The notes: generated from the sequence alone by a model not told the origin. DNA of 64,000 nt from Callorhinchus milii (GCF_018977255.1 NW_024704742.1:12402001-12466000); one strand, 5' to 3'; shown: positions 36,233 through 58,201, counted from the first letter of the stretch. A program made the numbers and translations.

Positions 36233-36988
36233 GTATGATTTATAACCACTTTTCATTCTGTTTCACTTTGTCTCACTCCAAACATTGTTTTGAGGGGCTA
36301 CACTACATAGAATCGTACAGCACAAAAAGAGGCCATTCGGCCCATCGAGTCTGTGCCGACTCTTTGAAAAGAGAAATGTAATGTCAGTCCCACTCCCCAG
36401 CCCTTTCCCCATAACCCTGCAAACCCGTCCTCCTCAAATACCCGTCCACCGCGTTTTTAAAAGTAGTTATCGAATCGGCCTCAACCACCCTTTCAGGAAA
36501 TGCGTTCCAGATTCAAACAACTCGCTGCGTGAAAACATTTCTTCTCACCTCCCCTCTGCTTCTTTTAGAGACTATTTTGAATATGTGACCTCGAGTCACC
36601 GACACAACCACCAGTGGAAACAGTTTTTCCCTTTCTAACCTATCAAATCCCCTCATGATTTTGAAAACCTCTATTAGGTCTCCTCAAAATCTTCTCTGCT
36701 CCAATGAGAATAATCCTCGCCTCTCAAGCCTTTCCTCATAATCAAGGTCGCTCATTCCTGGTACCATCCTCGTAAATCTCTTCTGCACCCTTTCCAATGC
36801 CTTAACATCCTTCCTATAGTGTGGTGCCCAGAACTGGGCGCAATATTCTAACTGAGGCCTAACCAGTGTTTTATATAAGTTAATCATAACCTCCTGACTC
36901 TTGTACTCTATGCCCCTATTTATAAAGCCTAGTATTCCATATGCCCTTTTTGTAGCTTTATCTACGTGAAGTCCTGTAGCTCAGTTGT

Positions 36989-37312
36989 GGAGTCCTGTAG
37001 CTCAGTGGTTAGAGCACTCGCTTTGCAAGTGAGAGACCTGAGTTCAATTCCAGGCAGAGCGAAAACTTGGGCAAGTTTCCTTACTCCACACAGAGCCTAA
37101 TAATAATCCCTCCAAAAAAACAAACAAAAAAAAAATCAGTCATTTTCAATCCACGACTGTTTGTGGGACATTGCTGTGTGCAATTGGCTGCCGTGTTCGC
37201 CCACAAATATACAGTCAATTCACTTTACAGTGTGTTCTGTGAAGCACTTTGGGATGTCCTCCCGACCTGAAAAGCGCTATATCAAATGCAAGGATTATTA
37301 TTATTATTATTA
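36989..37312 (+). mobile_element. Young SINE, short form, nested in CR1
   Basis: Complete; pure (ATT)n tail; 16-nt head duplication at 36970-36985. Confidence 0.92.
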
Positions 37313-38718: not shown

Positions 38719-39810
38719 CTAGTTTAAACCCTCCCCAACAGCATTAGTTAGCCTGTCTGCAAACACATTTGCCCAGCCCAGTTTAGGTGTAACCCATCCA
38801 TATGGTACAGGTCCCACCTGCCCCAGAACCGGTCCCAATGATCCAGAAACCTGAAGCCCTCTTTTCTGAACCATTGCTCCAGCCCAGCATTTATATGTTT
38901 GATCCTGCCATTATGGTACTTATTTTCCCGAGGCACAGGGAGTAATCCAGAGATCACCACCTTGGATGGTCTATTCTTTAGTTTGTTCCCCAGCTTTTGA
39001 TATTCACTCTGTAGCGTCTCAGCCCTTTTTTTTACCAATATCATGGATCCCAACCTGGACCACCAATTCTGGATGTTCTCCTTTCCCCCTGAAGAATTTT
39101 ATCCACCCATTCCGCGATGTCTGAGACTGTTGCACCAGGGGGGGCAGCATACCATCCTTGACTCCCATCTTCTGTTGCAGAAATGTCTGTCTCTACCTCT
39201 TACTGTTGTATCCCCTATAACAACAGCATTGCTCCTGTTACCTATGTCCCCCTGTTCAACAAATCGTTTTTTACTGTCCTCCCTGGAGATATCAACACTC
39301 TCAATGTTCAGTACAGAGCACTGGTTTGAGAGTGCTACACTATTGCGGGCATTCTGCCCAGCCCGTCCCCTCTTCCTAGCATGCAGGACAGTCACCCAGT
39401 CATTTTCTGTCTGAACCCTCGGTGTGTGGTGTGGGGTGGCCACCTCCTGAGGTGTCTGGTCCATCAAATACTCACATCTGCTGTACAAGTTTGAAGCCCA
39501 TTGCTCCATCATCCCTCTCACAGAGGTCCCTTTATCTGCAGAACTGATAAAACTATCCTGTCCCTGAGCATTAACCGGAAGCAAGCATCTCCGAAGCCTC
39601 AGGGGAGTGATGGTTTCCTCCAACATTCTGTCCAGGAACCTCTCATTGTCCCTGATGGAGCGCAGTGTCTGCACCTCGGCTTCCAGCTCAGCTACTCTCA
39701 GCTGGAGCTTCCTGAGTTGCAGACACTTGCTGCAGATGAAGTCGCCCGGACTCAGGGCCCTCCATTAACTCCCACATGTCACAGTCCTCGCATTTCACTT
39801 GCCACATCAT
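38719..39810 (-). pseudogene. CR1 ORF1 (zinc finger/leucine zipper + SGNH esterase-like), frameshifted
   Basis: CEDC...CSKC followed by heptad LQLRVAELEAEVQTL; VVIGDT, VVISGLLPV, DGLHLN; ends AVGEGLN*. Confidence 0.85.
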
Positions 39811-41836: not shown

Positions 41837-42606
41837 GTAGGTTTTCTTTCCTATCCTACAAAGAATTTTTAAAAATCTGCGTTTATTATGCAGTGATATT
41901 TGGTGGTAAACTAGTTTCTTTTAAAGACAAATTCTTTGAACAAACCGATGTGGTAGCAGGGAGTGAAGAAAGGAAATGGAGGCAAGCATTTCACTGCTTT
42001 AGGAAAATATTTATTACCAACAGTGCCTGCTTGTTTGTCCACAAATCCATCTTAGTTCCCAAACTAATCGGCAGATGTCGTTATGAGGGACGGACAGACT
42101 CACGTTTAAATAATGAGCCGACTGGGCGATGGAATGCTGTGCTCAGCCACTTATTGGATTTTCTGACTTCGCGTGTGTGTCAAATATTAGAAAATTCTAG
42201 AATCACTCAAAGGGGTCAAATAAGTGTTCCCTCTCAGGAAAGCACAGGTGGGTGTAACAGTCGAGGGTTTGAACCTGAGCTGGGGGTTGGAGTCAAGAGG
42301 GGTGGAGGGTAAGGGTGATGAGGGTGAGAGGATGATCGAAGGCACGGTTAAAGAGAAAAGTTTTGAGACAGGCCTTGAAGGAGGAAAGTTAATGGGTGAG
42401 TTGGAAGGACTCTGGGATAGAGTTCCAGAGGGTGGGGGTAGGAAGGCTGAAAACCCGACCGCCAATGGTGGGATGGACAGGGCAGGGGACATGGAGCTGT
42501 CCAGTGCCCACTGGACTTGGTTCGTTTTTAATAGGTCTGAAGGTAGGGAGGAGCAAGACCATAGAGTGCTTCAAAAATGAGGACAAGAATCTTGATCCTG
42601 AGGGAT

Positions 42607-43013
42607 TGTTAAATCCAGATTTCGATGTGCAATTGCTCTTTAAAGACCTGAAAAACTCAACACGGAGTCAGTGTGGTATACATCCAAAAAACGCTTTATT
42701 TCATATATATATGAGGTGCAGAGCAGTAGCAACAACTCTCTCAAGATAATGCTCCCCACACTGCACACCAGATAAAAACAACATCTGACTTTTATACATG
42801 TTCCATTTTCCCATAATTGGATGTCTGTTTCTTTCATAAAAAGAGATATGGGTCCCGGGTTCCTTAGCACAATAACATATACATTGATAGTTGCAAACCA
42901 AAACAAAGCTGAGCTTACACCAAATGCAAAAACATGTTTTGTCTCATTGCCTTTGCTTATTCTGTAACTTTTGCGATTGCCCAAAGATGAACAACATCCC
43001 CACACTTTCCACA
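42607..43013 (-). repeat. ERV 3' LTR (407 bp)
   Basis: Differs from 5' LTR by 9 substitutions and one 1-nt indel (manual count); TATAAAA at 42790-42796, AATAAA at 42695-42700 on - strand. Confidence 0.97.
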
Positions 43014-43025
43014 CTCCTCCCTTTT
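43014..43025 (-). promoter_or_regulatory. Polypurine tract
   Basis: - strand AAAAGGGAGGAG immediately before the TG of the 3' LTR. Confidence 0.9.
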
Positions 43026-43076
43026 ATCCCTGGGATAACTCACCATCCCTCAGTAACAGGGCACCAGGTAGGCTCC

Positions 43077-45103
43077 CTAGGATGAACTATCGATTTCCAA
43101 GAAGGAATCCGGGAAAGTAGCATGAAAACTTTCCATCTCATAACTTAGCTCATCACATGAGGGGGTGGGAGTGAGGTGGTAGTTAACTCGGACTGAATGC
43201 CTAGCCATCATTGATTTTGCAGTCTTTCGACAACACTGGGTGCAACATATGAGAACACATTTTACAAAAACAAAGATTAACAAAATAACTAAACTTATTT
43301 CTAACAAAATTCTGACTATACTTCCTAACCAACCCACTCCCATATTCTGCAACCAATTACTCAGCCAATCCAATAGTCCTCCGCCCGAATGAATAATGAT
43401 ATTACCCGCATCCTGCCCCGTTTGGTTAATCTCTTTGGTGATATTTGAAATTTTCCCAGAAAAATCATCTATACAACATTCAGGGCCAATAACCTTACAC
43501 ACTCCTCCCGTCGCAGCCAAGACATAGTCAAGGGCCATGCGGTTCTGTAGTGTGTAAAGGCGAATCTCGGACATTTCCTTTCCAATAAGGGCCAACGCTG
43601 CGGATGTTTCGGCGGCCAAGGAAGAGACAGCCTGAGACAGGATAGAAATCTGATCAAGGGTACACATCACCCCATAAAAGGGAAGAAGGGCCCCAAGAAA
43701 GCGATTCCACTGGGTCTGGGCATGTGTTTGAAAGGGATCAGCCCTGCGAGAGCGATGGATATGGCGGGGAACATACGGATTGGAAACGTTCAACACCTGT
43801 GGGCCTGGGGCAGATGGCAGGGTTTCAGTCAAACGGATCATGGGAAAATAATGAGCAAGGGCACATCTTCCTTTAAAGTTTGCCGGAAGGTAAGCATAAA
43901 CAGTAGAATTGCAAATCCAATAAAAATTCTTATGAATCGGGGATAGGGAGCAACGCTGAGTAATTGAGTAAGTCAGCATCCGGTGAACCCGTAAAGGTAG
44001 AACGAACCGACAATCCCCGAAACTGGATAATGGAACATCCACCGCCGCGTAAGGGTAGGTGGTATAACAGAAATCAGAATCCAAAAACCCAAGTGATTCA
44101 GTCCCAGTAAGAGATTCAACGCAGAATGCGAATCCTGTATAGACTGTAGTGGCCACATCAATTTTAGGGGGCTTTCCGCAGTCACGATTACACATTCGCA
44201 GTCTCCAGGGCTGGTGACCACACTGCAATTCTCGCAAATGAGGATTTAAAGGAGGGCAAATAATAGTTTGCATTATTTGTAGGTAGAAAAGTGAACAAAT
44301 TTCACATTCCGACAACGGGAACGCCATCATGGGATACCCCATGTGGACCGACGGAGGGGATAACCCACACACATGATGCTGGGTTGCAGTTTTGTGCTGG
44401 CTGACAGTCAGGAGCATCTGAATGTAAACATTGTGCAACTGAAAAGGAGGGGAAGTAATTTTAGGCAGAGAATTGCCAAAAATTCCTCTGAGTAGGGGAA
44501 CAAGTGGATCTTCAGAAGAGCTAAGAGCTGGGCACCAACTCGGTGGTAGCTCGGTATAAATCCTAGTTGTCGTCTCATTGAAATCTAGACTCATATACAC
44601 AAATTGGGAAGCTTTGGGGAATCGCGAAAGCATATTCCAAAATGAACAAGAATTATTAAACTTACATGCATATAAACCAGTACAATAACACATTATCATG
44701 AGATTATTGGTAAGGGTGCAGCGAATAGAACTCCGGGAACAATTAAGAGTGCGTATAGAGGCGGAAGATATATTCCTCCAGAGGGGCCTCATACTGAATC
44801 CGAAAGATCTCATCCCGCATTGTATCAGTTACAGAGGGGTACTCGACAGCTTGTTGTAATATCAACATTTTCACTGGTCAGAAAAGGATGCAATACAAAA
44901 TGGGAGGAGAAAGTTCGCTCCTCTAGAGGTAAATTAGTGTAACATATGGCAGAAGAACAGCGCACAGGCTCACTCGCATTGTACATTATGACATGGTCTC
45001 GGTGAAAAGACAGCAAGAGCTGGTGATCACCTACTTTCGAAGCAAAACAACAAACATCGCTTAAAATTGAAAACAATAACAAACACAGAATAAGCCACTT
45101 CAT
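43077..45103 (-). pseudogene. env: ERV env, gamma-type class I fusion protein; open except for one insertion near the 5' end
   Basis: Signal peptide MKWLILCLLLFSILS from ATG 45103; furin site RSRR; fusion peptide; immunosuppressive motif LQNRMALDYVLA; CX6CC (CKVIGPECC); TM helix; stop 43077; frame broken at the pol-derived insert 44773-44878. Confidence 0.93.
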
Positions 45104-45116
45104 AGTCACACAAAGT

Positions 45117-45146
45117 CTGTTCAGAGAAGGGCGGGAAGTGTCAATT
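45117..45146 (-). promoter_or_regulatory. Putative ERV splice acceptor for env mRNA
   Basis: - strand aattgacacttcccgcccttctctgaaCAG| between the pol stop (45147) and the env ATG (45103). Confidence 0.65.
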
Positions 45147-48100
45147 TCACGGTTCTTCACTTTGGCCGGAGTCCACTGTGGCTTGTTTGCAGTGACTGGC
45201 ATGTATTCACGTAGATCTTTCGCGAACCTTTACAGCGGTATGAGTCACCAATAGTACTTGAAATGGTCCCTCCCAACGTGGGCTTAGTCCGTGTTTACGC
45301 TTGAAAGTCTTTACGTATACAAATTCACCCGGTTGAAACTTGTGGCATTGATTAGATGCCTGAGGTTGTTGGAGCGCTCGAATCTGTGAATGAAAACTAG
45401 ACAGGGTTTTAGTCAATGCTATACAATATTGCATCATTCCTTCCTCGAGGGCATGAACATCAGGCAATGGCTGTACGCATGCAGAAAAGATCATAGGCAT
45501 ACTTTTTCCAAAAATGACCTCGTGAGGAGTCAACTTATTTTTAGTATTTGAATGATTCCTTATTTGCATTAGAGCTAGTGGCAACACGGCAACCCAATTT
45601 AATTTTGTTTGGTCGGACAACTTTGATAATTTCAATTTTAATGTTTCATTTGCCCTTTCTACGTCCCCCGCAGATTGGGGATGATACGCGCAATGTAAAT
45701 GCTGCTTGATTTGCAACATTTATGCGTATATCTTTTATTACCGCAGCAATAAAGTGAGGACCATTGTCAGAGGAAAGGCGTGATGGAATACCAAATCGAG
45801 GAAGGATGTCTCTTAATAACACTTTGGCAGTAGTTGTGGCATCATTCTTCCTACAGGGAAAAGCTTCTATCCATGGGAACATTTTTCGTGGCAGAACCAC
45901 CTTTAACTCATTTGAGACCCAAATTCCCAGATTATTAATAAAACAATCTAGACGGGCCCATTTTTGTTTTTCCTCCAGAGGGGCCTCATACTGAATCCGA
46001 AAGATCTCATCCCGCATTGTATCAGTTACAGAGGGGTACTCGACAGCTTGTTGTAATATTAACATTTTCACTGGTTTATTTAAAGCAGCATGTCTAGCAG
46101 CTGTGTCTGCATAAGCGTTACCTTTAGAAATTGGGTCAGCTTGGTTTGTGTGGGCTGCACACTTTATCACTGCCATTGCCCTTGGTAGCAATAATGCGGC
46201 AAGGAGATTAACTATAAGATCTCGATGTTTAATGGGAGACCCACTGGAGGTGAGAAACCCTTTATTTTTCCAAAGTTGACCAAAATCATGACACACCCCA
46301 AATGCGTAGCGAGAGTCAGTAAACACATTAATCACTTTTCCTTCTGCTAACTCACATGCTCATTTTAAGGCGGTTAGTTCTGCAGCCTGCGCAGATGTGT
46401 TGGAGGGTAATGAGTCGCTTTCTATGACAGCAGCAGCTGACACTATAGCATATCCTGCACAGGGCTGACCACACTCGTTCCTGCATGCTGATCCATCCAC
46501 AAACCACTCACACTCTGCATTATGTAAGGGACTCTCCTTCAAATCTAGTCGTGGTTTTGTCTCTAGGTTTATAACCTCTAGGCAATCATGGGGTTCTCCC
46601 TCGTCTTCTACGGGTACAAGAGTTGCCGGGTTCAAAACAGTGCAACGCTTGATAGTCAAATTTGGATTGGATAACAGACCCACCTCGTATTTGCTACTTC
46701 TGGCACTCGTTAAATGTTGCGTTGCATGACGGAGCAGGCATGATTCAACCGAGTGTGGAACATGCACAACAAGGGGATGATTAAGCGTTAATCCCTCATC
46801 TTGCATAACCGCATAGTAAGTAGCAGCTACCGCCTTTAGGCACCCCGGCAGAGCACTAGCAACCGGATCCAACTTTGTGGTAAAATATGAAACTGGTCGC
46901 TGCCTACCCCCGTGCTCTTGAGTGAAAACCGCTTGCGCGAATCCTCCAACCTCATGCACAAACAATTTAAATACCTTCTCATAATTAGGAATGCCTAAAG
47001 CGGGGGCACTTTGCAAAGCTGTTTTGAGCTGGTCAAAGGCTTGTTCTGCCTCCGTTGTCCACACCAGAGGCTCCACTGTGATAGTGGGCTTAGTCATCTC
47101 CGTCAATGGCTTGGATAACTGGGCGTAATCACTAATCCACTGTCTACAGTAGTTGGCCATTCCCAAAAAGTGTTTCATTTGTCTGATCGTGATTGGTTTA
47201 GGAATTTTCCTAATACCCTCTATCCTATCGGGGGATAGCTGACGGGTGTCCTGACACAAGTCATGTCCCAGATAATGGACCTGTGGTCTTACAAGTTGCA
47301 ATTTATCCCTAGCCACTTTGTGTCCCTTCACAACCAATTGTTGTAATAAGTATTTAGTGTCTTTTTCGCAATCTTCCACAGAGGGACTGGCAATCAGTAG
47401 ATCGTCCACATACTGGATCAGGGTAGACTTCCCTGGAAATTGCAAATCTTGCAAGTCATTCCGCAAAGTTTGGGAAAAGATAGTGGGGCTCTCACAGTAC
47501 CCCTGGGGTAATCTAGTCCAAGTTTATTGTTCACCCTTATATGTAAAGGCAAACAAGTAATAGGACTCTGGGTGGATGGGAACTGAAAAGAACGCAGAGC
47601 ACAATAGAATAACAAACTGAATCAGCAGGAATAGCTGTTATTATAGTCGCAGGATTAGGCACTACAGGGCAGCACTGGATTACTATATTATTAATAGCTC
47701 TCAAATCTTGCACAAAACGCCATCGCTTCCCATCCGATTTGAGTACTGGCAGGATGGGTGTTACAAGGACTACGGTATTTTATGATGATTCCCTGATCTA
47801 ACAGGCTTTCTACAACTGATCGTATTCCCTCCTCAGCCTCCTTTTTCAGGGGATACTGTGCTTGATAGGGAAGGGGTTTTTCTGGGTGAACCTGAACCTT
47901 AAAGGGGGGCGCAGTTAGTATTTTCCCCACATCATTTGGGTGTAACGTCCATAGAGCAGAATCTATGTCTTTTAACCACTTAGGCTCTGCTGCCAAAACA
48001 TGCAGGGTGTGGTGAGACAGAGTGTGGCGAGAAAACTCAAATACCGAGAACAGCGAGAGCAAACCGACGCACAGCTTATAAACCCGTAGGCACGGGTCGT

Positions 48101-48962
48101 ACAACACGTCGGGGCGAAGCTCAGTAAAATTTGTAGACCAATTTGCCCTTCTAACCATAGTTCCTAAGTCTTTTGGGCTGTATCCCTCAACCACCCGCAA
48201 TGTCACATGAGGGTCAGAGTTCTCACTTTTAAAGTAAGGCTGCTCGTCTGTTTCCAGAGTGCATGCAGCCGCAATACCCTCTGGCCCTAAGTAGAGGGAG
48301 TGAACCTGTAAAGTGGAAGAAATTCCCACATGGTCCTCGAACCGAGTTATATCTACTTCTCCACTTTTTACGTAAAAAGCTGTACAATGTAAAGGGGAAG
48401 TACATGCAGACAACGTATGCTCCAAGTAATAGCATTCAAGGAGCAAGTTCGTTTTATAAAGCAGCATGACATGAATTAATACTTCAGGATTTAACAATGT
48501 CCAACGGAAATAGCCTGGGGATTGTAACTTTGGGGAACTGGGAGAAACAAGGGAGCACAGTCTCGGGTATTCATGCTCAGGCGTCAGCAAGGTGATTCCA
48601 TCTGGGGCGCACTTAATGATTATTCCCATTTTACACAGCAAATCCCGTCCACACAAATTGATCGGCAATTCACTGTTTACTAGGAACTGGTGGTAACCCT
48701 CAATCGTACTTTCCCCTATGTCTCCCCTCACCTGAACTGGATGGGTCGTAGCCATCTCTACAGGCTTTCCTGATACGCCAACAACCGCTACAGTCCCGCC
48801 TTGCTGGACAGAGTTAGAATGAGTCAAAGCTGAATAAGTGGCCCCAGTATCGACAAGCAATGTCTTTACCTCCCCATCTACAGTTAAGCGAATACAGGGA
48901 TCCGGGATATCTGAGTGTTTTGAAAAACCACGGGATTGGGGAGTCAGTGGGGCCGCTAAACT
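45147..48962 (-). pseudogene. pol: ERV pro-pol (protease, candidate 2H domain, RT, RNase H, integrase; disrupted)
   Basis: LVDTGA and NLCGRDLL; WRFVQDLRAIN; LPQG; YVDD; WFVDGS; TDSRYA; SSDNG; HPQSAGDVER; WEGPF. Lesions: frameshifts near 47760, 47605 and 45720; stops at 47524, 46360 and 45207; integrase N-terminal deletion near 45872. Confidence 0.95.
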
Positions 48963-51265
48963 TCATTGTGGTGAAAGCTCTTCCGATATCGCAAGCATCT
49001 GGCGCGCTGGGGCTTGGTACTGGGACTGTGACTGTTGGAAACCCTGAGGTGCATAGACAATTTTACCTTGGGGGCAGAACTGGACCTGGGATCCCTGGCA
49101 CCTATTAGGGCAATCTCGGGACCAATGTCCATATGCTCCACAGGCAAAGCAATTCTAGTTAGGACATCCAGGCTGGGACGGAGGAGGAGGAGGGCAATTC
49201 AGCCCATAGTTTGGTTGACTATATCCGTGATTGTACCCTGAATTATAACCTCCTTCCCATCTACCGTAACCTCCTCTACCCCGACCTCGTCCTCGCGTTC
49301 TTCGCCTCTGAAAACCTCTTATCTGTGTATTCATACCTCTGGCGGCTTGACTTAAGGCAGGGGTGGTAGGCACAGGTGCAGTAGTAGCGACGGGTAATTG
49401 TGCGTCTGTAGCCAACATAGTCCTGGAGTCCGGTAGCTCAGTGGTTAGAGCACTCGCTTTGCAAGTGAGAGACCTGAGTTAAATTCCAGGCAGGGCGAAA
49501 CCTTGGGCAAGCTTCCTTACTCCACACGCCTAATAATAATCCCTCCAAAACCAAAAACAATAATAAATTGGTCATTTTCAATCCACGACTGTTTGTGGGA
49601 CATTGCTGTGTGCAATTAGCTGCCGCGTTCGCCCACAAATATACAGTCAATTCACTTTACAGTGTGTTCTGTGAAGCGCTTTGGGACGTCCTCCCGATGT
49701 GAAAAGCGCTATATCAAATGCAAGGATTATTATTATTATTATTATAGGGCTCAGCCCCTGTGTTGCCGATGTCAACCCACCAGCAATGGTAGAGACTGCC
49801 ATCTCAAAAGCCGCTTTAGTCCCTTTTTCCCTTTTCGTCTCAAGCTGCTTGTAACAATGCTTTAATGTTGGCATTAAATCTATCATGACCTTGCCTTCCC
49901 ACCCGATACATAAGGACTTGAACATGTCTTGCAATTCTTTCTCAAGACCTGCCACAAGCGCTGCCACAAAGGGCGACTGGTTGGCAGTCACATTCTCAAT
50001 TCCCGAATAGCGCGAGAAAACTTTCCTAAACCTCTCAACATAATCCTCGAGAGACTCTCCTTTCTTCTGAGTACAGTCGCTAATTTTAGTCCAATCAGAG
50101 GTTTGGGGGTACAAATTGCGCAAGACTTGTATAATAGCTGTGAACATTTGTGGATGGTCTGGCCCTGAATTGTCTCCGACAAGGTTATTACACCGACGCC
50201 TAATTTCTTGTAGCATGTGGTGTCCCTTGGAAGGGGGCAACCATGCTTCCAAAAACACGATCCAATCAGACATAGTAGGATTATGACACAAACGCATAAT
50301 AGTCAATGCCCTTTCAGCCTTTGCAAAATCTACATCTGGGAGGGGGTTTGCAAAATCAAATCTTTTAGTTCAGTGGCTGTCCATGGGCGGTAAATTTCCA
50401 TCGTGCCCCCCATAGGGGCTGGAAATTCGCGCATAGGGAACATTAATGGTCCATTGTTGCTCACGGATCCTGCAGGTAAGGAGCCGTCAGTAGGCGAGGA
50501 ATATGGTGGTGGAGCAGAGGGATAGGGGTCAGGAATGGGACAGGATGTGTAGGGAGTGCTTGTCAGTGGACCCAGGTTAATGGGAGCAAACGTCTCCGAT
50601 TGTCCCATGGAGGACAGAGGTGAATTGAATGAGCCCGGTGAGGGGGTAGCCGATATGGTTGACAGTCCTCCTACACTCTCTCTATTTGTCGACACCAAAG
50701 AAGCTGGGAACACAGCCGAACTACTTGGAGGTGTCTGTATATTTGTGGTGGAACCCGTCAAAGTAGAGGCAGAGGCTATATTGGGATATTGGCATACACC
50801 GGTTGCTGCAAGAGCTGCTGGTATTGTCAACTCCTCATCCTCATTATAACCCGTCGAAGGGACAGTTTCCTCAGCTTCCTCCATTTCCTTTTCTGCCTTA
50901 TTTCTTAGCTGCTGAGCTACCATTACCTTTGCTGCTGAGTTTTGTCGACTTGCCAAAACGCCTGTCGTTTTTCACTTTTCAGTAATCCACGAATTAAGTG
51001 CTTCTATTTGCAGGGTCATATTATGCTTTCTGCAGACACAATTACCGCACCCACCTTGTTCAGATTTGGCATGGACCGTTGCATGAAGAGCGGCAATACG
51101 GTCTTTATTAAAGGATCTGTCTGGAGGCCAAGAAAAAGGTTGGCCCTTAGTTAATTTAGTCCAGGTCCGCAAATAACGAACACTGTGCTGACCAAAATGA
51201 CTTTTCATATAGGCAGCTGGGGTGCCCTTATCTCCCTTCTGAGCCGAGCTAAACGTTTGTCCCAT
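48963..51265 (-). pseudogene. gag: ERV gag (disrupted)
   Basis: ATG 51265 MGQTFS (myristoylation-like); PSAPPPY 50501-50521; MHR-like QKKGESLEDYVERF; RG-rich stretch; one CX2CX4HX4C knuckle (CFACGAYGHWSRDC, 49110-49151); ends TGA 48963-48965. Lesions: in-frame TGA 50972, frameshift near 50340, SINE 49425-49745, in-frame TAG 49155. Confidence 0.92.
49425..49745 (+). mobile_element. Young SINE, short form, inserted in ERV gag
   Basis: Complete copy with pure (ATT)n tail; removing these 321 bp rejoins gag in frame (GLSP|RTMLAT). Confidence 0.95.
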
Positions 51266-51417
51266 GACGATTGTTAATAACGAAGTAAATGGCCTCCCCA
51301 GCACAATTAAATACACACAAAGTATCTAAATGACTTAAACTTCAACGGCCGACTTCTTATACATACAAGATCTTAACTTATCAAGACATCTAATTTATCA
51401 ATTACCACTTATAATAT

Positions 51418-51535
51418 TAGGGACTCAAACCCGTAGTCGACTTAATATTAGGGATCCGAACCCGTAGTCTACTTAACCTTAGGGACTCGAACCCGTAGTC
51501 TACTTAACCTTAATCCTAGGGACTCGAACCCTTAG
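51418..51535 (-). repeat. Four tandem ~31-bp repeats in the ERV leader, each with a GGGTTCGAGTCCC-like core
   Basis: Cores at 51420-51432, 51451-51463, 51482-51494 and 51519-51531. Confidence 0.9.
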
Positions 51536-51789
51536 TTTAACAACCTTAATATTAAACAACTTTAATATTAAACAACCGATCGGAGTTATAACTTTATCTG
51601 TGTCGGGCGGAAACACCAGCGGCCGACTTTCCTGAAGACGTCTTATCCATGTACTATACCTTATAGTACTAAACCGCCTGGAATCATTTAGGTCTAACAA
51701 ATCGCAATTTTGCACCTTAAATCGAAGAGGTCGGGAACCCTCGACAACCACGTCTCAACAACGTATCGTACACAAACAATGGTAAGAAT

Positions 51790-51798
51790 GCTCACCTG
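51790..51798 (-). promoter_or_regulatory. Putative ERV splice donor for env mRNA
   Basis: - strand CAG|GTGAGC about 65 nt downstream of the PBS. Confidence 0.6.
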
Positions 51799-51862
51799 TG
51801 CACGATGTTTGTGCTGATAAATGCAGAGCCGTGGAAAGCCAAAGGGAAAACCCGGTCTTTCG

Positions 51863-51880
51863 ATCTCGGTGGAACCTCCA
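51863..51880 (-). promoter_or_regulatory. Primer-binding site, tRNA-Gln
   Basis: - strand TGGAGGTTCCACCGAGAT, 3 nt inside the 5' LTR; 18/18 complementary to the 3' end of vertebrate tRNA-Gln (ATCTCGGTGGAACCTCCA). Confidence 0.93.
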
Positions 51881-51883
51881 AAT

Positions 51884-52289
51884 TGTTAAATCCAGATTTC
51901 GATGTGCGATTGCTCTTAAAGACCTGAAAAACTCAACACGGAGTCAGTGCGGTATACATCCAAAAAACGCTTTATTTCATATATATATGAGGTGCAGAGT
52001 GGTAGCAACAACTCTCTCAAGATACTGCTCCCCACACTGCACACCAGATAAAAACAACATCTGACTTTTATACATGTTCCATTTTCCCATAATTGGATGT
52101 CTGTTTCTTTCATAAAAAGAGATATGGGTCCCGGGTTCCTCAGCACAATAACATATACATTGATAGTTGCAAACCAAAACAAAGCTGAGCTTACACCAAA
52201 TGCGAAAACATGTTTTGTCTCATTGCCTTTGCTTATTCTGTAACTTTTGCGATTGCCCAAAGATGAACAACATTCCCACATTTTCCACA
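51884..52289 (-). repeat. ERV 5' LTR (406 bp)
   Basis: On - strand starts TGTGGAAA, ends TTTAACA; CCAAT at 52092-52096, TATAAAA at 52066-52072; abuts PBS. Confidence 0.97.
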
Positions 52290-52599
52290 GGATGGAGGAG
52301 CTAGTGAAAATGGACCAGGATAGGGGTGATCGGCTCAAGAAGCTTAGTGCAGGAGAGGACACGAGCTTCAGAATTGTGAATATTCTGCAGTTTACAGAGG
52401 GAAGTGTTGGGAGCTCCTATGAGCAGGGAGTTAGCAAAGTCAAGCCTAGACATAATTAAAGCATGCATCACCATTTCATTCTACCAACAACCACAATATC
52501 TTAACAAAAATGTTTTGATCAATGGAGTAGATCAATATGTTTTTGTACCTACCCCCCAAACCCCCGCCCAGAATATAGTTTTGAAATATGGTACTGATT

Positions 52600-53300
52600 T
52601 TATTGGACAAGATGGAAGCCATACTCCTTGGCTCCCATCAACGTCTTGATTCCTGCGGATCTAAATTCCTCAACCTCCCTGGGCTCTCCCTCAGACTCAC
52701 CGAACCAGTGCACAACCTAGGCGTCTGGTTCAACACCCAACTGTCCTTCCTCCCCCACATTTGGTCCCTGACCAGGACCATCTTCTTCCACCTCTGCCAC
52801 ATTGCCCACCTCCAGCTTTACCTTACCCAAAATGCAGCCGATACCCTCATGCATGCATTTGTCACCTCCTGTCTGGATTACTCAAACGCACTCCTCACCA
52901 GTCTCCCCAGCCACACATTCAAAAGATACAGTTCATTCAAAACTCTGCTGCCCGCATACTGACCCGGACTAAACTCTATACCCAGATCTCACCAGTTCTG
53001 GCCCAGGCTCCACTAGCTCTCCATCACCAAACGGATCAACTTCAAGATCCTCACACTCACATTCAAATCCATTCACTCTCTGGCATCTCCCAACCTCTCC
53101 TACCTCCTCACCCCCCAATCCACCACCATGCTCGACTGACAGCAACCTCCTGCTCGTCCCTCCCACCCTCTACCCCCACCATCGGAGGTCGCAGTTTCAA
53201 CCACTATACCCCTAAATTCTGGAACAGTCTCCCTCAATCCCTCCGCCTTGCCTCCTCTCTCCCCTTTTTCAAGTCCTGCCCAAAAACCTTCCTCTTCGAC
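52600..53300 (+). mobile_element. Older L2 fragment
   Basis: HNLGVWFNTQLSF, HAFVTSCLDYSN, IQNSAARIL, IGGRSFNHYTPKFWNSLP. Confidence 0.85.
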
Positions 53301-54229
53301 TGTAAGAGAAGCACAACCAGAGGCCAATAAGCAAGTCTCTCACCTGCCTTTGGGCGTAGAATATTTTACCGAAATTAGAAGAAAATACATAGATTTACAA
53401 AGAATGTTAAAGCATAGAAATAAGGCATCCAGCCCAATCAACTTGTGATGCTGTTTATTCTCCACATGAGCCTCCACACTTTCAAATTCACTTCTCCCAT
53501 ACTCCACTCTTCCCTTCTCATGTTAATGTTTTCTGTTTGTGGGACACTGCAGTGTGCAATTGGCTGCTGGGTTTCGCCCACAAAACACACAATCACTACA
53601 CTTGTTAGTATATTCTGTGAAGCACTTTGAAATGTCTCGAGGACGTGGTAAGGCCCTATATCAAATGCAAGGATTGTTATTATTATTATTCTTCATCTAG
53701 AGCTTCTGTCAATGAGTTCCAGATCCTCACCATCCTGTGTTATTTTTGGTCAGCCGGGTATCTGACATATCTGATACATGAAACCCATCACTATGCTTAA
53801 GAGTATCTAAACCAAGCTGAGATTTCCATGCATCCCACCTACACATGGAAATCGCTGAGATAGATTGTTGGAATGGAATGCAAACTCTCTTCCTGGAGGG
53901 ATGCATCCTGCTTACCATTCTTTGTGTAAAGCAGTTCCTCCTAAACGTTAGACGCGTTACTTATATTTATGACTTTTTTGGGATTCACCAACAACTGGAA
54001 ACGCTCTACCTTATGGAATCCTTTTAGAATTTTAAACACTTCCTTCAGACTCCCTCTGAATTGTGTCATCTCCAGAGAGAAAAACTCCAACCTGTTTTTA
54101 ATCTTTCTTGATCGCTCCTCATCTTGCTAACAAATTGGTATTTGTACACTGCACTTTCTCCAATGCTACAGTATTCTGACCAGAATTGCAATTGCACATA
54201 GTACTCCAAATGTGGTCTAACCAAATTTG

Positions 54230-54602
54230 CTATGCAAGCAAGAGACTGGGTTCGATTCCTGGCAGGGCGAAATGTTGGGCAAGTTTCCTTATTCCACACA
54301 CCTCTGTTTACCTAGCAGTAAGTAGGAACCTGATTGTTAAAGTAAATTGGCAGATGGCTTTTCCGGGGGTAATAATTCCTTAAAAAAATATTGGTCGTCT
54401 ATACATAAATATATATATAATAATAATTGGGTCATTCAATCCACAACTGTTTGTGGGACACTGTTGTGCATAATTGTTTGCCACATTTCACCCACAAATT
54501 ACGCAGTCAATTCACTTTACAGTATATTCTGTGAAGCGCTTTGAGACGTGTCGAAGACATGATAAGGCACTATATCAAAGGCAAAGATTATTATTATTAT
54601 TA
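54230..54602 (+). mobile_element. SINE, long form, head partly truncated
   Basis: B-box GGTTCGATTCC, central segment, body, tail. Confidence 0.88.
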
Positions 54603-56007
54603 CTTAATTTAGATTACATTGATTTACTGTTGCCCATGACAAATAAGCATCCAATTTGGTGAAATTATTGCAGTTGCTGCTGTTTCTGTCTTTAACTGAA
54701 AAAGACCAGGAAGTATAATGGTACCAGTTTAGTTTAAAATCACATTAAGAAAAGAAACAGAAATGGGACAAGCTTTCTGGTCAGACACCTGACAGTGCTA
54801 TTGTAGCTGACAATGCAAGTACATGAGTTACGCAATCATATTTCACAATATCTGAATCCCCAGACTCCATAGAACAGAGACCTTATTGAGGTCACTGAGG
54901 TCATTACCTCCAAATTGAAAATAAAACAAAGAATTAGAGATTTTCTTGAATTTTGTGGAGTACAGTTACCAAATAAAGCGGGTCAGTCCTGCATTTGGAT
55001 ATCTTATGCATCATTCAGCGTTATATCTTCCACACTGTGCACAGAATAGACAAAATGCATTTTCAGCTGTAAATTTAAAGTAAAACAACAAAATTGTATG
55101 GGCCGATGCCAACCACGTTATCTGACTCTGTGCATGGGCCAGATAGATTCAAATTAAGAACAACAACAAAACTACATTTGTCTAGCGCCTTTCACATCAG
55201 GAAGATGCCCCAAGACGCTGGCCTTGGGACATCAGTCAAGAACAAGCAGGGCTACAAGTTTTGGCAAAGGAAATAATTTCTTTTGCTGCCTTTGTTGATC
55301 GTTTTTGTTTACAAATAATGTCTGATTTGTATAAGCTCGTTTGTAATCTGCATATTGTTCTGCATATAATTTGCACATACAGCAAGTTGCATATTACATT
55401 TGAGGTTTCCTTACTTTATTGCTGAAGATCACTGCTGATCATCACATATCACATGTATTGCTGTGAGTCAGCTAGCTTATATGATCTTAGTGGTGTTGGT
55501 TGTGGTGGTGGGTTGGTCTGTGTGGAATCAAACAAAGAGACATAAAGATCGCTTTATCCAGAAACGTGCGTTAGAATAAAAACAGATTCAATATTTTTCA
55601 TTATTTGAAAGTAATGGAATAGACATGTGTTAGTAATGTGATAGGTAATATTTTAAAACCTCACATGTTCTCTGTCAGGTTAGAAGGTTATACCAGTCAC
55701 ACAATTATTTTGAGAATTATCAAATATATTGTACCCTGTTCAGATAATGCTTTTTTTGTGAGCGATTTGAAAGCTATGTATGGGCAGGCAAGGTGGTATA
55801 GAGGTCTCTTTGATGTACGGAAAATAGTCAGTGAAAATAGTAGAACCGTTTACTAGTAAAATTACAAAATATAATATTTGTTATAATCGGACCTTTCTGT
55901 AGTACACCTGCAGGTAAGTAAACTGCATACTTATGATTTATGAAATGAAACTGGCAGTGGATCATTTTACATTGTCTTTTTAATGTATCCCTGTTTTAAT
56001 CTGATGT

Positions 56008-56323
56008 GGAGCCCTGTAGTTTAGTGGTTAGAGCATTCCTCCTTGCGAGAGGATCCAGGTTCGATTCTTGGCAGGGCAAAACGTTGGGCAAGCTTCCTTA
56101 CTCCACAAGCCTCTATTTACCTAGCAGTAAATAGGAACTTGGTTGTTAATAAATAAAAATGATTTGGTCATTCAGTCCACCTGTTTGTGGGACACTGCTG
56201 TGCGCAATTAGCTGCCACGTTTTGCCCACAAAATAACAGTCAATTCACTTTATGGTATATTCTGTGAAGTGCTTTGAGACGTCTCGAAGACGTGATAACA
56301 AATGCAAAGATTATTATTATTAT
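56008..56323 (+). mobile_element. SINE, long form with internal deletion
   Basis: Head, part of central segment, body, tail. Confidence 0.88.
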
Positions 56324-56326
56324 CTA

Positions 56327-56456
56327 CAATAAAACCAGTCTTTGACAACCATTTGGGGGACTGGGCCAATGTAGTCTTTGTATAAGGGTGGCCTCCCAGT
56401 AAGAGTTTGTTGGTGCGGTTGTTAACAGGAGGTGGTTGCTTCAACAGGGTTGACTG
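56327..56456. mobile_element. Tc1/mariner(pogo)-type MITE, ~130 bp
   Basis: TA on both sides (56325-56326, 56457-56458); imperfect ~26-bp terminal inverted repeats caataaaaccagtctttgacaaccat / ggtggttgcttcaacagggttgactg. Confidence 0.6.
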
Positions 56457-56969
56457 TATTCTATTTCTGGTTCCATGAATTTCATTATGTGTAAATGGCA
56501 TTACAATAACATTTTTTAAGTTGAATGCCAGAGGTTTTTTGTTATTGTTTTTGTTTTTTGATATTTTTGTTATTGGCTTAGAGCATGGTTAGAATTTCAT
56601 TACGCAGTGTATTTAACAGGTGGAACACTTTACTGGAAAGGGAGGTAGAAGGCAAGACAAGAAGATTCATTTCAGAAACGATTTTATGCAGGAATGGGAA
56701 GATGAGGGTTGGGTATTCTCCTGGAAGAATGGCATCAACTAGGCTGCAGGGATTTCTTCATTCAAACCTGTGTGATTTTGTCATGTCCTGGTTAAATGCA
56801 AATAATGAAAATGTTGAATCTGTTTCTATTCTAACGCATGTTTCAGGATGAAGGTTGCTTCAATGAATTCAAAAACTGTATAATCCCTGTCATACTATTC
56901 TGTTTTCATGTTATTTTTAAGAAATTAAAATGCAATTCTTATGCAATTGTATTTTTAAATTTATAACAG

Positions 56970-57213
56970 GTTTGGAGACGGTTATACAATGAGTGTTCGA
57001 GTTGGAGGCGATCTTTTGGATCTGAGATCAGTGGAGGATTTTGTACAGTCCTCCTTCCCTAACAGCGTACTGAAGGAGAAACACCACAACATACTACAGT
57101 ACCAGCTTCCATCTAGTGAAAACTCCTTAGCAAAGATTTTCAGCACTTTCACCAATAACAAAGAGAGGCTTAACATCGAGGATTATACTGTTTCACAGAC
57201 AACTCTAGACCAG
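56970..57213 (+). CDS. ABCA1-like: ABCA exon, 244 nt, regulatory domain 2
   Basis: ataacag| ... |[19 protein letters not shown]...[15 protein letters not shown]. Confidence 0.97.
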
Positions 57214-58072
57214 GTACCTTCTCAGCCATTAAAAGCCTGGAAATTGTTTCTTTTCGCTTCCATAATGTTTTTTTTTACCTTTGATTATTCCTCTTACATT
57301 CTTCAGGATGTCAAGAAATTATGAAGTGTTGTGAGCGTGCAGAATGTACATAGTCTTATGAAGCAAGTAGGCTCAATAACCTTTTTTTTAAAAACTTATG
57401 AAAGACTGCAGGTTCCATATTGCAGCATGTGATCAAAGTTGAAAAGAATAGACAAGATGTCGAGATACATCAAAGAGTAAAGAATAGGTGATACAAAGCT
57501 TGCCTATAGATTTTTGGAAGGAAGGAGATGATGTATTGCACAAACTAAATGTCAGGAAAGCATGAGATTAACGTATAGCATTATATACCATTATTAGTAG
57601 CAGTAATATAGAAACACACTAGACTGAAGATGAAAGAGGGGCTTATTTAATAGGCTTTTCTCTTTCCACAATATCTAATGTGTTTTTAAAACATTAATGA
57701 GGACATTTCCCTCCAAGGATTCAATCTGATATTGAATTGTTGTGAAATATTTCAATTGCTTTTGCAACATTTTTCATATATCGTGTATATAAGCATAAAG
57801 CACGGTCATCAATTTGCAACAGTATTTTGGGGAAAGAAAGCACAGCCTCAGGCCTTTGAGAATAGTAATGAAAAGAAGCCAGATTTACTGAAGTCTTAAT
57901 TGCTTTAATTGTTTTTATTCTGTCAGGATACCGGCTTGGGTTTAAGGAATAATCGGTCACAATAATTATCCTTGCAACGTTATCTCATTATCTCGATGAA
58001 CTTGACTAGAAGCATGAAACATTAATTTCAGTAATGTTGCATTGACNTTTTTTTCTTCAATAAACTGCACAG

Positions 58073-58201
58073 GTATTTGTCAATTTTGCCAAGGATCAGA
58101 TTGAGATCGACGAAGATGCCGAAATGTACACTAACAGTACTGCAGTAACCAACGAAGAATTGAAGATGGAGGCAGTGAACTTCCCTCACGCTAAAGTTTA
58201 A
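58073..58201 (+). CDS. ABCA1-like: ABCA terminal coding exon to TAA stop
   Basis: ctgcacag|; VFVNFAKDQIEIDEDAEMYTNSTAVTNEELKMEAVNFPHAKV*; conserved VFVNFA motif. Confidence 0.92.
   Translation, partial: VFVNFAKDQIEIDEDAEMYTNSTAVTNEELKMEAVNFPHAKV

What the first reader, a model, noticed from the sequence alone, without database searches (positions are those of the whole stretch)
42603..52293. Complete, recently integrated epsilon-like provirus with a tRNA-Gln primer in a probable cartilaginous fish
Seen: all cis elements are present (GGAT TSD, LTRs, perfect 18-nt Gln PBS, PPT, splice donor and acceptor). The LTRs differ by 9 substitutions and 1 indel, 5 of the substitutions at CpG/TpG/CpA sites. 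Only ~50 nt separate the env stop from the PPT, so there is no room for WDSV-like 3' accessory genes. Inference: a simple-genome epsilon-like lineage, reconstructible from this copy apart from the integrase deletion. Full-length chondrichthyan class I ERVs are thinly described. Host assignment is inferred only from the repeat content.
Basis: partly seen in the sequence, partly recalled or inferred. Interest (0 to 1): 0.7.

Follow-up and report, generated by a model that had tools for sequence, protein, structure and literature searches.

The report
Broken elephant-shark retrovirus in an intron
This is a real but long-dead retrovirus copy in an intron of an elephant-shark lipid-transporter gene, a close relative of an elephant-shark retrovirus already published in 2015, so it adds detail to a known lineage rather than a new kind of virus.

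Summary
The cis anatomy is right: 4-nt target duplication, LTRs with 9 substitutions and 1 indel, tRNA-Gln primer site, purine tract 51 nt after env, and a splice pair seen joined in 2 probable RNA runs. The host is the elephant shark, Callorhinchus milii (ABCA1-like exons up to 100% identical); the provirus lies antisense in an intron, inside an old L2 LINE. It is not a new lineage: it is a sister of CmiERV lineage II (Han 2015), with 95 of 101 RT residues identical (hand count), the same primer site and purine tract, but a different U3. 'Complete' is wrong: 5 premature stops, at least 4 frame changes, a SINE in gag, an integrase gap and a pol duplicate in env. 'Recent' is doubtful: 2.3% LTR divergence gives about 5-50 My and equals that of the published copy. 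Verdict: new dead member of a known epsilon-like lineage.

The parts
42603..42606 (.). target-site duplication (left copy, 4 nt)
   Evidence: flanks co-linear with L2 copies across the junction
42607..43013 (-). 3' LTR (407 nt)
43014..43025 (-). polypurine tract
   Evidence: same tract in CmiERV scaffold 324 by eye
43077..45103 (-). env, broken; gamma-type TM with furin site, immunosuppressive domain, CX6CC, membrane anchor
   Evidence: Pfam TLV_coat E 2e-4 (below cut-off) and HR1-HR2; ATG at 45103
44773..44878 (-). 106-nt duplicate of pol 45970-46075 lying inside env (1 mismatch); breaks the env frame
   Evidence: skipped by family contigs in X1, X5, X6
45397..45398 (-). env splice acceptor
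   Evidence: joint 45396-51796 with GT..AG ends on the - strand in X5 and X6
45147..48962 (-). pro-pol, broken: protease, 2H domain, RT (YVDD), tether, RNase H, partial integrase
45869..45874 (-). junction of the integrase gap (about 94 codons missing, zinc finger and start of the core), 6-nt overlap at the junction
   Evidence: P0111 822 to 916; P0112 1016 to 1111; records 19 and 27
47991..48590 (-). CNPase-like 2H phosphoesterase domain between protease and RT, both HxT motifs present (codons at 48389 and 48209), frame open
48618..48902 (-). aspartic protease (DTGA)
   Evidence: Pfam RVP E 4e-8
48963..48965 (-). in-frame UGA between gag and pro (presumed readthrough site, context UGAAGU)
48963..51265 (-). 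gag, broken; Met-Gly start, one CCHC zinc knuckle
49424..49745 (+). tRNA-derived SINE with (ATT)n tail inserted in gag, opposite to the provirus
   Evidence: 93% to the copy at 36988-37312
51405..51540 (-). four short repeats in the 5' leader; no ATG-started frame of 25 codons or more other than gag
51794..51795 (-). major splice donor
51863..51880 (-). primer-binding site, tRNA-Gln, 3 nt after the LTR
51884..52289 (-). 5' LTR (406 nt), TATA box at 52072, AATAAA at 51976
52290..52293 (.). target-site duplication (right copy)
   Evidence: junction spanned by X1 record 8
41837..56965 (+). intron of the host ABCA1-like gene that holds the provirus antisense

Best explanation
A dead germ-line provirus of an epsilon-like (class I) retrovirus of the elephant shark, a sister subfamily of CmiERV lineage II. 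The ancestral virus had a simple gag-pro-pol-env genome, primed reverse transcription with tRNA-Gln, made Pol by readthrough of an in-frame UGA, made Env from a singly spliced RNA, and carried a CNPase-like 2H phosphoesterase between protease and RT (shown: anatomy, motifs, fold, splice joint; inferred: readthrough and enzyme activity, most likely hydrolysis of 2',3'-cyclic phosphate RNA ends or cyclic nucleotides). It integrated with a 4-nt duplication into an old L2 fragment in an ABCA1-like intron, antisense to the gene, in a small burst with other copies, and has since decayed neutrally and caught a SINE. The integrase gap and the pol duplicate in env are template-switch or repair accidents private to this copy; whether they arose during reverse transcription or after integration is open.
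For: Host: exon 56965-57216 is 99% identical to C. milii ABCA1-like and 52-73% to all 112 other listed proteins; 10 exon blocks map in order on the + strand around the provirus. Kinship: hand comparison gives 95 of 101 residues and 246 of 303 nt identical in RT (window 47221-47523), same PBS, leader start, PPT, UGA and both HxT motifs; the best database proteins reach only 55%. Han's tree places lineage II with walleye and amphibian epsilonretroviruses. 2H domain: model pLDDT 80, the 41 PDB rows listed are all CNPase/RICH, WEHV-1 and WDSV polyproteins rank 2 and 3 among viral models. Neutral decay: 5 premature stops against 2.6 expected from half the LTR divergence, P 0.13; the 6 long internal X1 pieces differ at 40 of 3072 nt (1.3%), close to the 1.1% expected.
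Against: The comparison with CmiERV is by eye over 303 nt plus landmarks, not a computed alignment. My tree holds no named reference virus and has a weak backbone. U3 shows no likeness to CmiERV 324 by eye and the LTR is shorter (406 against about 600 nt). The env Pfam match is under the curated cut-off. The splice joints have only 26 and 28 letters on the short side and the runs are only guessed to be RNA.
Confidence: 0.9

Rival explanations
1. The insertion is young (under about 5 My) and perhaps still polymorphic; the LTR divergence is inflated by CpG decay.
For: 5 of 9 LTR substitutions are CpG-type; at a mammal-like rate the age is 5 My.
Against: Shark rates are low: 7e-10 per base per generation in the epaulette shark (PMC10587355); Han's 2.2e-10 per year gives 51 My. 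The copy has had time for 5 stops, 4 or more frame changes and a SINE. X1 holds the LTR-flank junction, though X1 may be the source animal.
Confidence: 0.15
2. It is a non-autonomous copy: an already broken provirus was transcribed, packaged by a helper and re-inserted, so most lesions predate this integration.
For: The integrase gap and the duplicate in env lie about 95 nt apart in source position and look like template switches; the duplicate has 1 mismatch in 106 nt, which fits an origin as old as the integration (P 0.31).
Against: Family contigs in the laid runs do not share the gap, the duplicate or the SINE junction shown; the number of stops needs no extra age.
Confidence: 0.15
3. Some of the lesions are assembly errors of long-read sequence.
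For: Several frame changes are of 1-2 nt; no laid contig covers the internal alleles of this locus.
Against: Host exons nearby are clean; the stops are substitutions, the SINE, gap and duplicate are large, and the LTRs themselves carry an indel.
Confidence: 0.05

Closest known systems
CmiERV lineage II, scaffold 324 of Callorhinchus milii (Han 2015, PMC4422223; whole text and both supplements read)
   Same: Host; RT core 95 of 101 residues (hand count); PBS, 3-nt spacer, leader start and donor; gag start; UGA at the gag end; 2H motifs; env; PPT with short gap after env; LTR divergence 0.024 against 0.023; both are broken and carry a retroposon in gag.
   Different: About 19% nucleotide difference in RT, nearly all silent; U3 unalike, LTR 406 against about 600 nt; length 9,683 against 10,086; other lesions, other retroposon (SINE here, L2 tail there); another locus.
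Epsilonretroviruses WDSV, WEHV-1/2
   Same: 2H domain between protease and RT (PMC9503650 passage); in-frame stop between gag and pro; class I.
   Different: No orf in the leader and no room for 3' accessory genes; UGA in place of UAG (PMC13517186); the walleye viruses are exogenous.
SSSV, ZFERV and the Rhinella marina ERV (simple epsilon-related fish and amphibian retroviruses)
   Same: [quoted passage not shown]
   Different: Host class; database relatives from fish, turtles and amphibians are at most 55% identical in RT-RNase H. No direct sequence comparison with these three viruses was possible.

Membership tests
Class I ERV (gamma/epsilon-related) | RT groups with gamma/epsilon retroviruses | tested here: met
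   Hits are vertebrate ERV Pol proteins; near identity to CmiERV II, placed with epsilon in PMC4422223; best PDB matches of the protease-RT frame are XMRV protease and MLV RT
Class I ERV (gamma/epsilon-related) | gag and pro-pol in one frame, parted by one stop | tested here: met
   UGA at 48963-48965, frames adjoin
Class I ERV (gamma/epsilon-related) | Gamma-type TM (ISD, CX6CC), single zinc knuckle, MLV-like integrase C-terminus, 4-nt target duplication (the 4-nt rule is recalled) | tested here: met
CmiERV lineage II | Pol clusters with the scaffold 324 element in C. milii | tested here: met
   94% RT residues by hand; no computed tree with CmiERV
CmiERV lineage II | Same LTR family as the scaffold 324 element | tested here: not met
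   By eye only the first 7 nt and the R/U5 end are alike; lengths 406 and about 600. Hence sister subfamily
Genus Epsilonretrovirus (WDSV, WEHV) | Additional ORFs outside gag-pol and env (PMC13517186 passage) | tested here: not met
   No ATG frame in the leader; 51 nt between env and PPT
Genus Epsilonretrovirus (WDSV, WEHV) | RT clade with WDSV/WEHV in a tree with named references | tested here: inconclusive
   Tree of 145 rows without named viruses: query apart from 10 of 11 Gag-p30-bearing rows, in a group (0.91) where 9 of 18 others bear the 2H domain and 9 are too short to tell
2H phosphoesterase, CNPase-like | Two Hx[T/S] motifs on a bilobed fold | tested here: met
   First His in 41 of 50 rows (8 gaps), second in 49 of 50; fold matches CNPase, E 1.5e-5
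2H phosphoesterase, CNPase-like | Phosphodiesterase activity | not testable with these tools
   No assay
Named Repbase/Dfam C. milii ERV family | Match to a library consensus | not testable with these tools
   Libraries not held

The most novel reading that the evidence does not exclude
This is an undescribed subfamily of elephant-shark epsilon-like retroviruses that split from CmiERV II while replicating under purifying selection (57 nucleotide but only 6 residue differences in 101 RT codons), replaced its U3, and whose other copies still make spliced env RNA; with its conserved CNPase-like domain it would be a chondrichthyan model for what this untested retroviral enzyme does.
Probability: 0.45. 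Interest if true: 0.4.

Novelty: new member of a known kind. Interest (0 to 1): 0.22.

Why it matters
It modestly extends the thin record of full-length cartilaginous-fish retroviruses: a second LTR subfamily of CmiERV lineage II, with primer, readthrough codon, splice sites and a 2H domain now annotated (the 2015 paper mentions none of these). It also warns that 2% LTR divergence is not 'recent' in a slowly mutating shark genome. It opens no new mechanism; the function of the retroviral CNPase-like domain is the only open question it touches, and that domain is widespread in fish ERVs.

Tried and rejected
No whole genome is held, so copy number and solo LTRs could not be counted. No relative in viral contigs. 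No run listed is on record as RNA; X5 and X6 are guesses. X17 gave only short, unlike pieces and no cover of the unique flank, so it says nothing on presence or absence; no joint across an empty site is among the 15 joints shown, 249 were not shown. Depth sums (about 25-87 inside against 7-9 on the flank in X1) hint at several copies but are no copy number. A 123-codon stop-free frame in the LTR (reached by 0.9% of 3000 resamples) was considered as an LTR-encoded accessory gene and set aside: its first ATG gives 65 codons that run past the poly(A) signal, family LTR contigs carry 1-, 2- and 4-nt gaps in it, and the Atlas gave no usable hit. Sequence search of the PDB with the 2H alignment gave CNPase only at E 0.6-1.1; Pfam does not name the domain. 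CmiERV scaffold 2 and 2324 are clearly more distant by eye. The tree kept 144 of 224 homologues (those aligned over 340 residues or more). The scan's index held no look-alike of the RT. Literature searches found no paper on this locus or on a second lineage II subfamily; subscription papers, Repbase and Dfam were not searched, and Basta 2009 and Mazumder 2002 were seen only as citations.

Full report
Observation. The element lies on the minus strand, 42607-52289, 9,683 nt. GGAT flanks both ends. The LTRs are 407 and 406 nt and differ by 9 substitutions and 1 indel; 5 of the 9 are in CpG/TpG/CpA contexts. The 18-nt primer site starts 3 nt after the 5' LTR. Its 15 non-CCA bases were searched in metagenome contigs: of 120 loci returned, 20 held a tRNA call and 19 of these were tRNA-Gln, with the motif at the 3' end. 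The purine tract (43014-43025) lies 51 nt from the env stop. The target site is real: the two host flanks, without the provirus, align across the junction to 5 other L2 copies in the window, the best at 68% over 435 columns.

The copy is not complete. Open frames, Pfam and tblastn with 5 homologous Pol proteins show premature stops at 50972 and 49155 (gag) and 47524, 46360 and 45207 (pol), frame changes near 50345, 47760, 47605 and 45720, and about 94 codons missing from the integrase at 45869-45874. A tRNA-derived SINE sits in gag at about 49424-49745 on the opposite strand, 93% identical to another copy in the window. A 106-nt duplicate of pol 45970-46075 lies within env at 44773-44878 and breaks its frame; TM has a further small gap. 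Five stops fit neutral decay since integration: 2.6 are expected over 2526 codons from half the LTR divergence, P 0.13.

Host and setting. One of 94 non-repeat frames scanned (of 140 listed) matched an ABCA1 domain. It is 99% identical to Callorhinchus milii ABCA1-like proteins (8 rows) and 52-73% to the other 112 rows listed. Ten exon blocks map in order on the plus strand from 8414 to 58198, and the provirus lies antisense in the intron between about 41837 and 56965. The window's L2 tail is, by eye, nearly identical to the L2 tail inserted in a published C. milii ERV. The host is the elephant shark or a very close congener.

What it is. Database proteins reach at most 55% identity over the RT-RNase H frame (104 hits; best 120 of 217). 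The supplement of Han 2015 (PMC4422223; whole text and both supplements read) holds a far closer relative, CmiERV scaffold 324, lineage II. A hand count over window 47221-47523 gives 95 of 101 residues and 246 of 303 nucleotides identical. The primer site with its 3-nt spacer, the leader start with the donor, the gag start, the UGA at the gag end, env and the purine tract are shared by eye; U3 is not, and the LTR there is about 600 nt. Han's tree puts lineage II with walleye and amphibian epsilonretroviruses. The excess of silent differences means that the two subfamilies diverged while replicating under selection (inference). My own tree (144 of 224 homologues kept, no named viruses, midpoint root, weak backbone) places the query apart from 10 of 11 Gag-p30-bearing rows and in a group of support 0.91 in which 9 of 18 other rows bear the 2H domain and 9 are too short to tell.

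About 200 open codons lie between protease and RT. They hold two HxT motifs. A search of 1.84 billion proteins gave 78 relatives; in an alignment of 49 of them with the query the first His stands in 41 of 50 rows (8 gaps) and the second in 49 of 50. The model (pLDDT 80) matches vertebrate CNPase and goldfish RICH in all 41 PDB rows listed (best E 1.5e-5), and polyproteins of WEHV-1 and WDSV at E 2e-8 and 5e-8 (those entries are labelled envelope polyprotein, I take them for Pol from their length). The Atlas pointed to tRNA-ligase phosphodiesterase and 2H clusters, with a recognition score under its threshold. This is known: 2H domains in WDSV (PMC9503650, passages) and CNPase-like frames in ray-finned-fish ERVs (PMC4977317, passages). 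Both motifs are also present in CmiERV 324 by eye. The activity is untested; I think cleavage of 2',3'-cyclic phosphates most likely, from the CNPase fold (inference, about 55%), against 2-5A or cyclic dinucleotide cleavage.

How it worked. Gag and pro-pol share a frame, parted by UGA in the context UGAAGU. A review reports UAG for WDSV and MLV but UGA for SSSV, ZFERV and a frog ERV, the last with this same hexamer, and says that readthrough is unverified in this group (PMC13517186, passages). Four of 24 listed runs were laid. In X5 and X6, guessed to be RNA and from two studies, a contig joins 51796 to 45396 with GT..AG ends on the minus strand, exactly at the predicted donor and acceptor; X1 and X17 do not show it. 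The short sides are 26 and 28 letters, so this is good but not firm evidence of spliced env RNA, and it belongs to the family, not demonstrably to this locus: contigs in these runs differ from the window by about 1-3% and do not share its large lesions. No ATG frame of 25 codons lies in the leader, and none fits between env and the purine tract, so the genome is simple, unlike WDSV.

Age. The K2P distance of the LTRs is 0.023 (95% interval for 9 events 0.010-0.042). That is 5 My at 2.2e-9, 11 My at 1e-9 and 51 My at 2.2e-10 per site per year; the last is Han's assumed shark rate, which gave 54.5 My for CmiERV 324 at 0.024. A pedigree rate of 7e-10 per generation in the epaulette shark supports the slow end (PMC10587355, passages). 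CpG sites pull the other way. X1 holds the 5' LTR-flank junction in one contig, but it may be the source animal; X17 does not cover the flank; fixation is untested.

Novelty. Searches found no paper on this locus or subfamily; passages of PMC6001957, PMC10699275, PMC8672886 and PMC8278194 show that epsilon-like ERVs are common across jawed vertebrates. Repbase and Dfam could not be checked. It works like a simple epsilon-related fish retrovirus; it is a member of class I and a sister subfamily within CmiERV lineage II; it fails the accessory-gene test for the genus Epsilonretrovirus. Verdict: new, dead member of a known kind; interest 0.22.

Noticed in passing
window 8414-58198 (+): Ten 3' exon blocks of the C. 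milii ABCA1-like gene; the frame ends near 58198.
   Followed up: partly
window 42640-43013 and 51916-52289 (-): A 123-codon stop-free frame spans nearly the whole LTR in both copies; 0.9% of resamples reach this. Probably chance; not conserved in other family LTRs.
   Followed up: yes
window 43022-43036 (-): A perfect 7-bp inverted repeat directly before and overlapping the purine tract, identical by eye in CmiERV 324 although the sequence upstream differs; the folding run preferred another hairpin.
   Followed up: partly
window 51405-51540: Four short repeats, 31-37 nt apart, in the 5' leader; CmiERV 324 has unrelated tandem repeats at the same place by eye.
   Followed up: no
window 43029-43471: One contig in X5 skips the 3' 441 nt of env (non-canonical ends): a deleted family variant.
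   Followed up: no
window 38751-39764 (-): Frame with a GDSL/SGNH-like match (E 2e-6, under cut-off) upstream of a CR1-type RT: probably ORF1 of a CR1 LINE; the family label is recalled.
   Followed up: no
window-wide: Seven tRNA calls (Ala, Thr, Val) are heads of one abundant SINE; about 38% of the non-proviral window is repeated within the window.
   Followed up: partly
PMC4422223 supplement 1, scaffold 324 and 2324: Both published lineage II and III elements appear by eye to carry the 2H motifs between protease and RT, which the paper does not mention.
   Followed up: no
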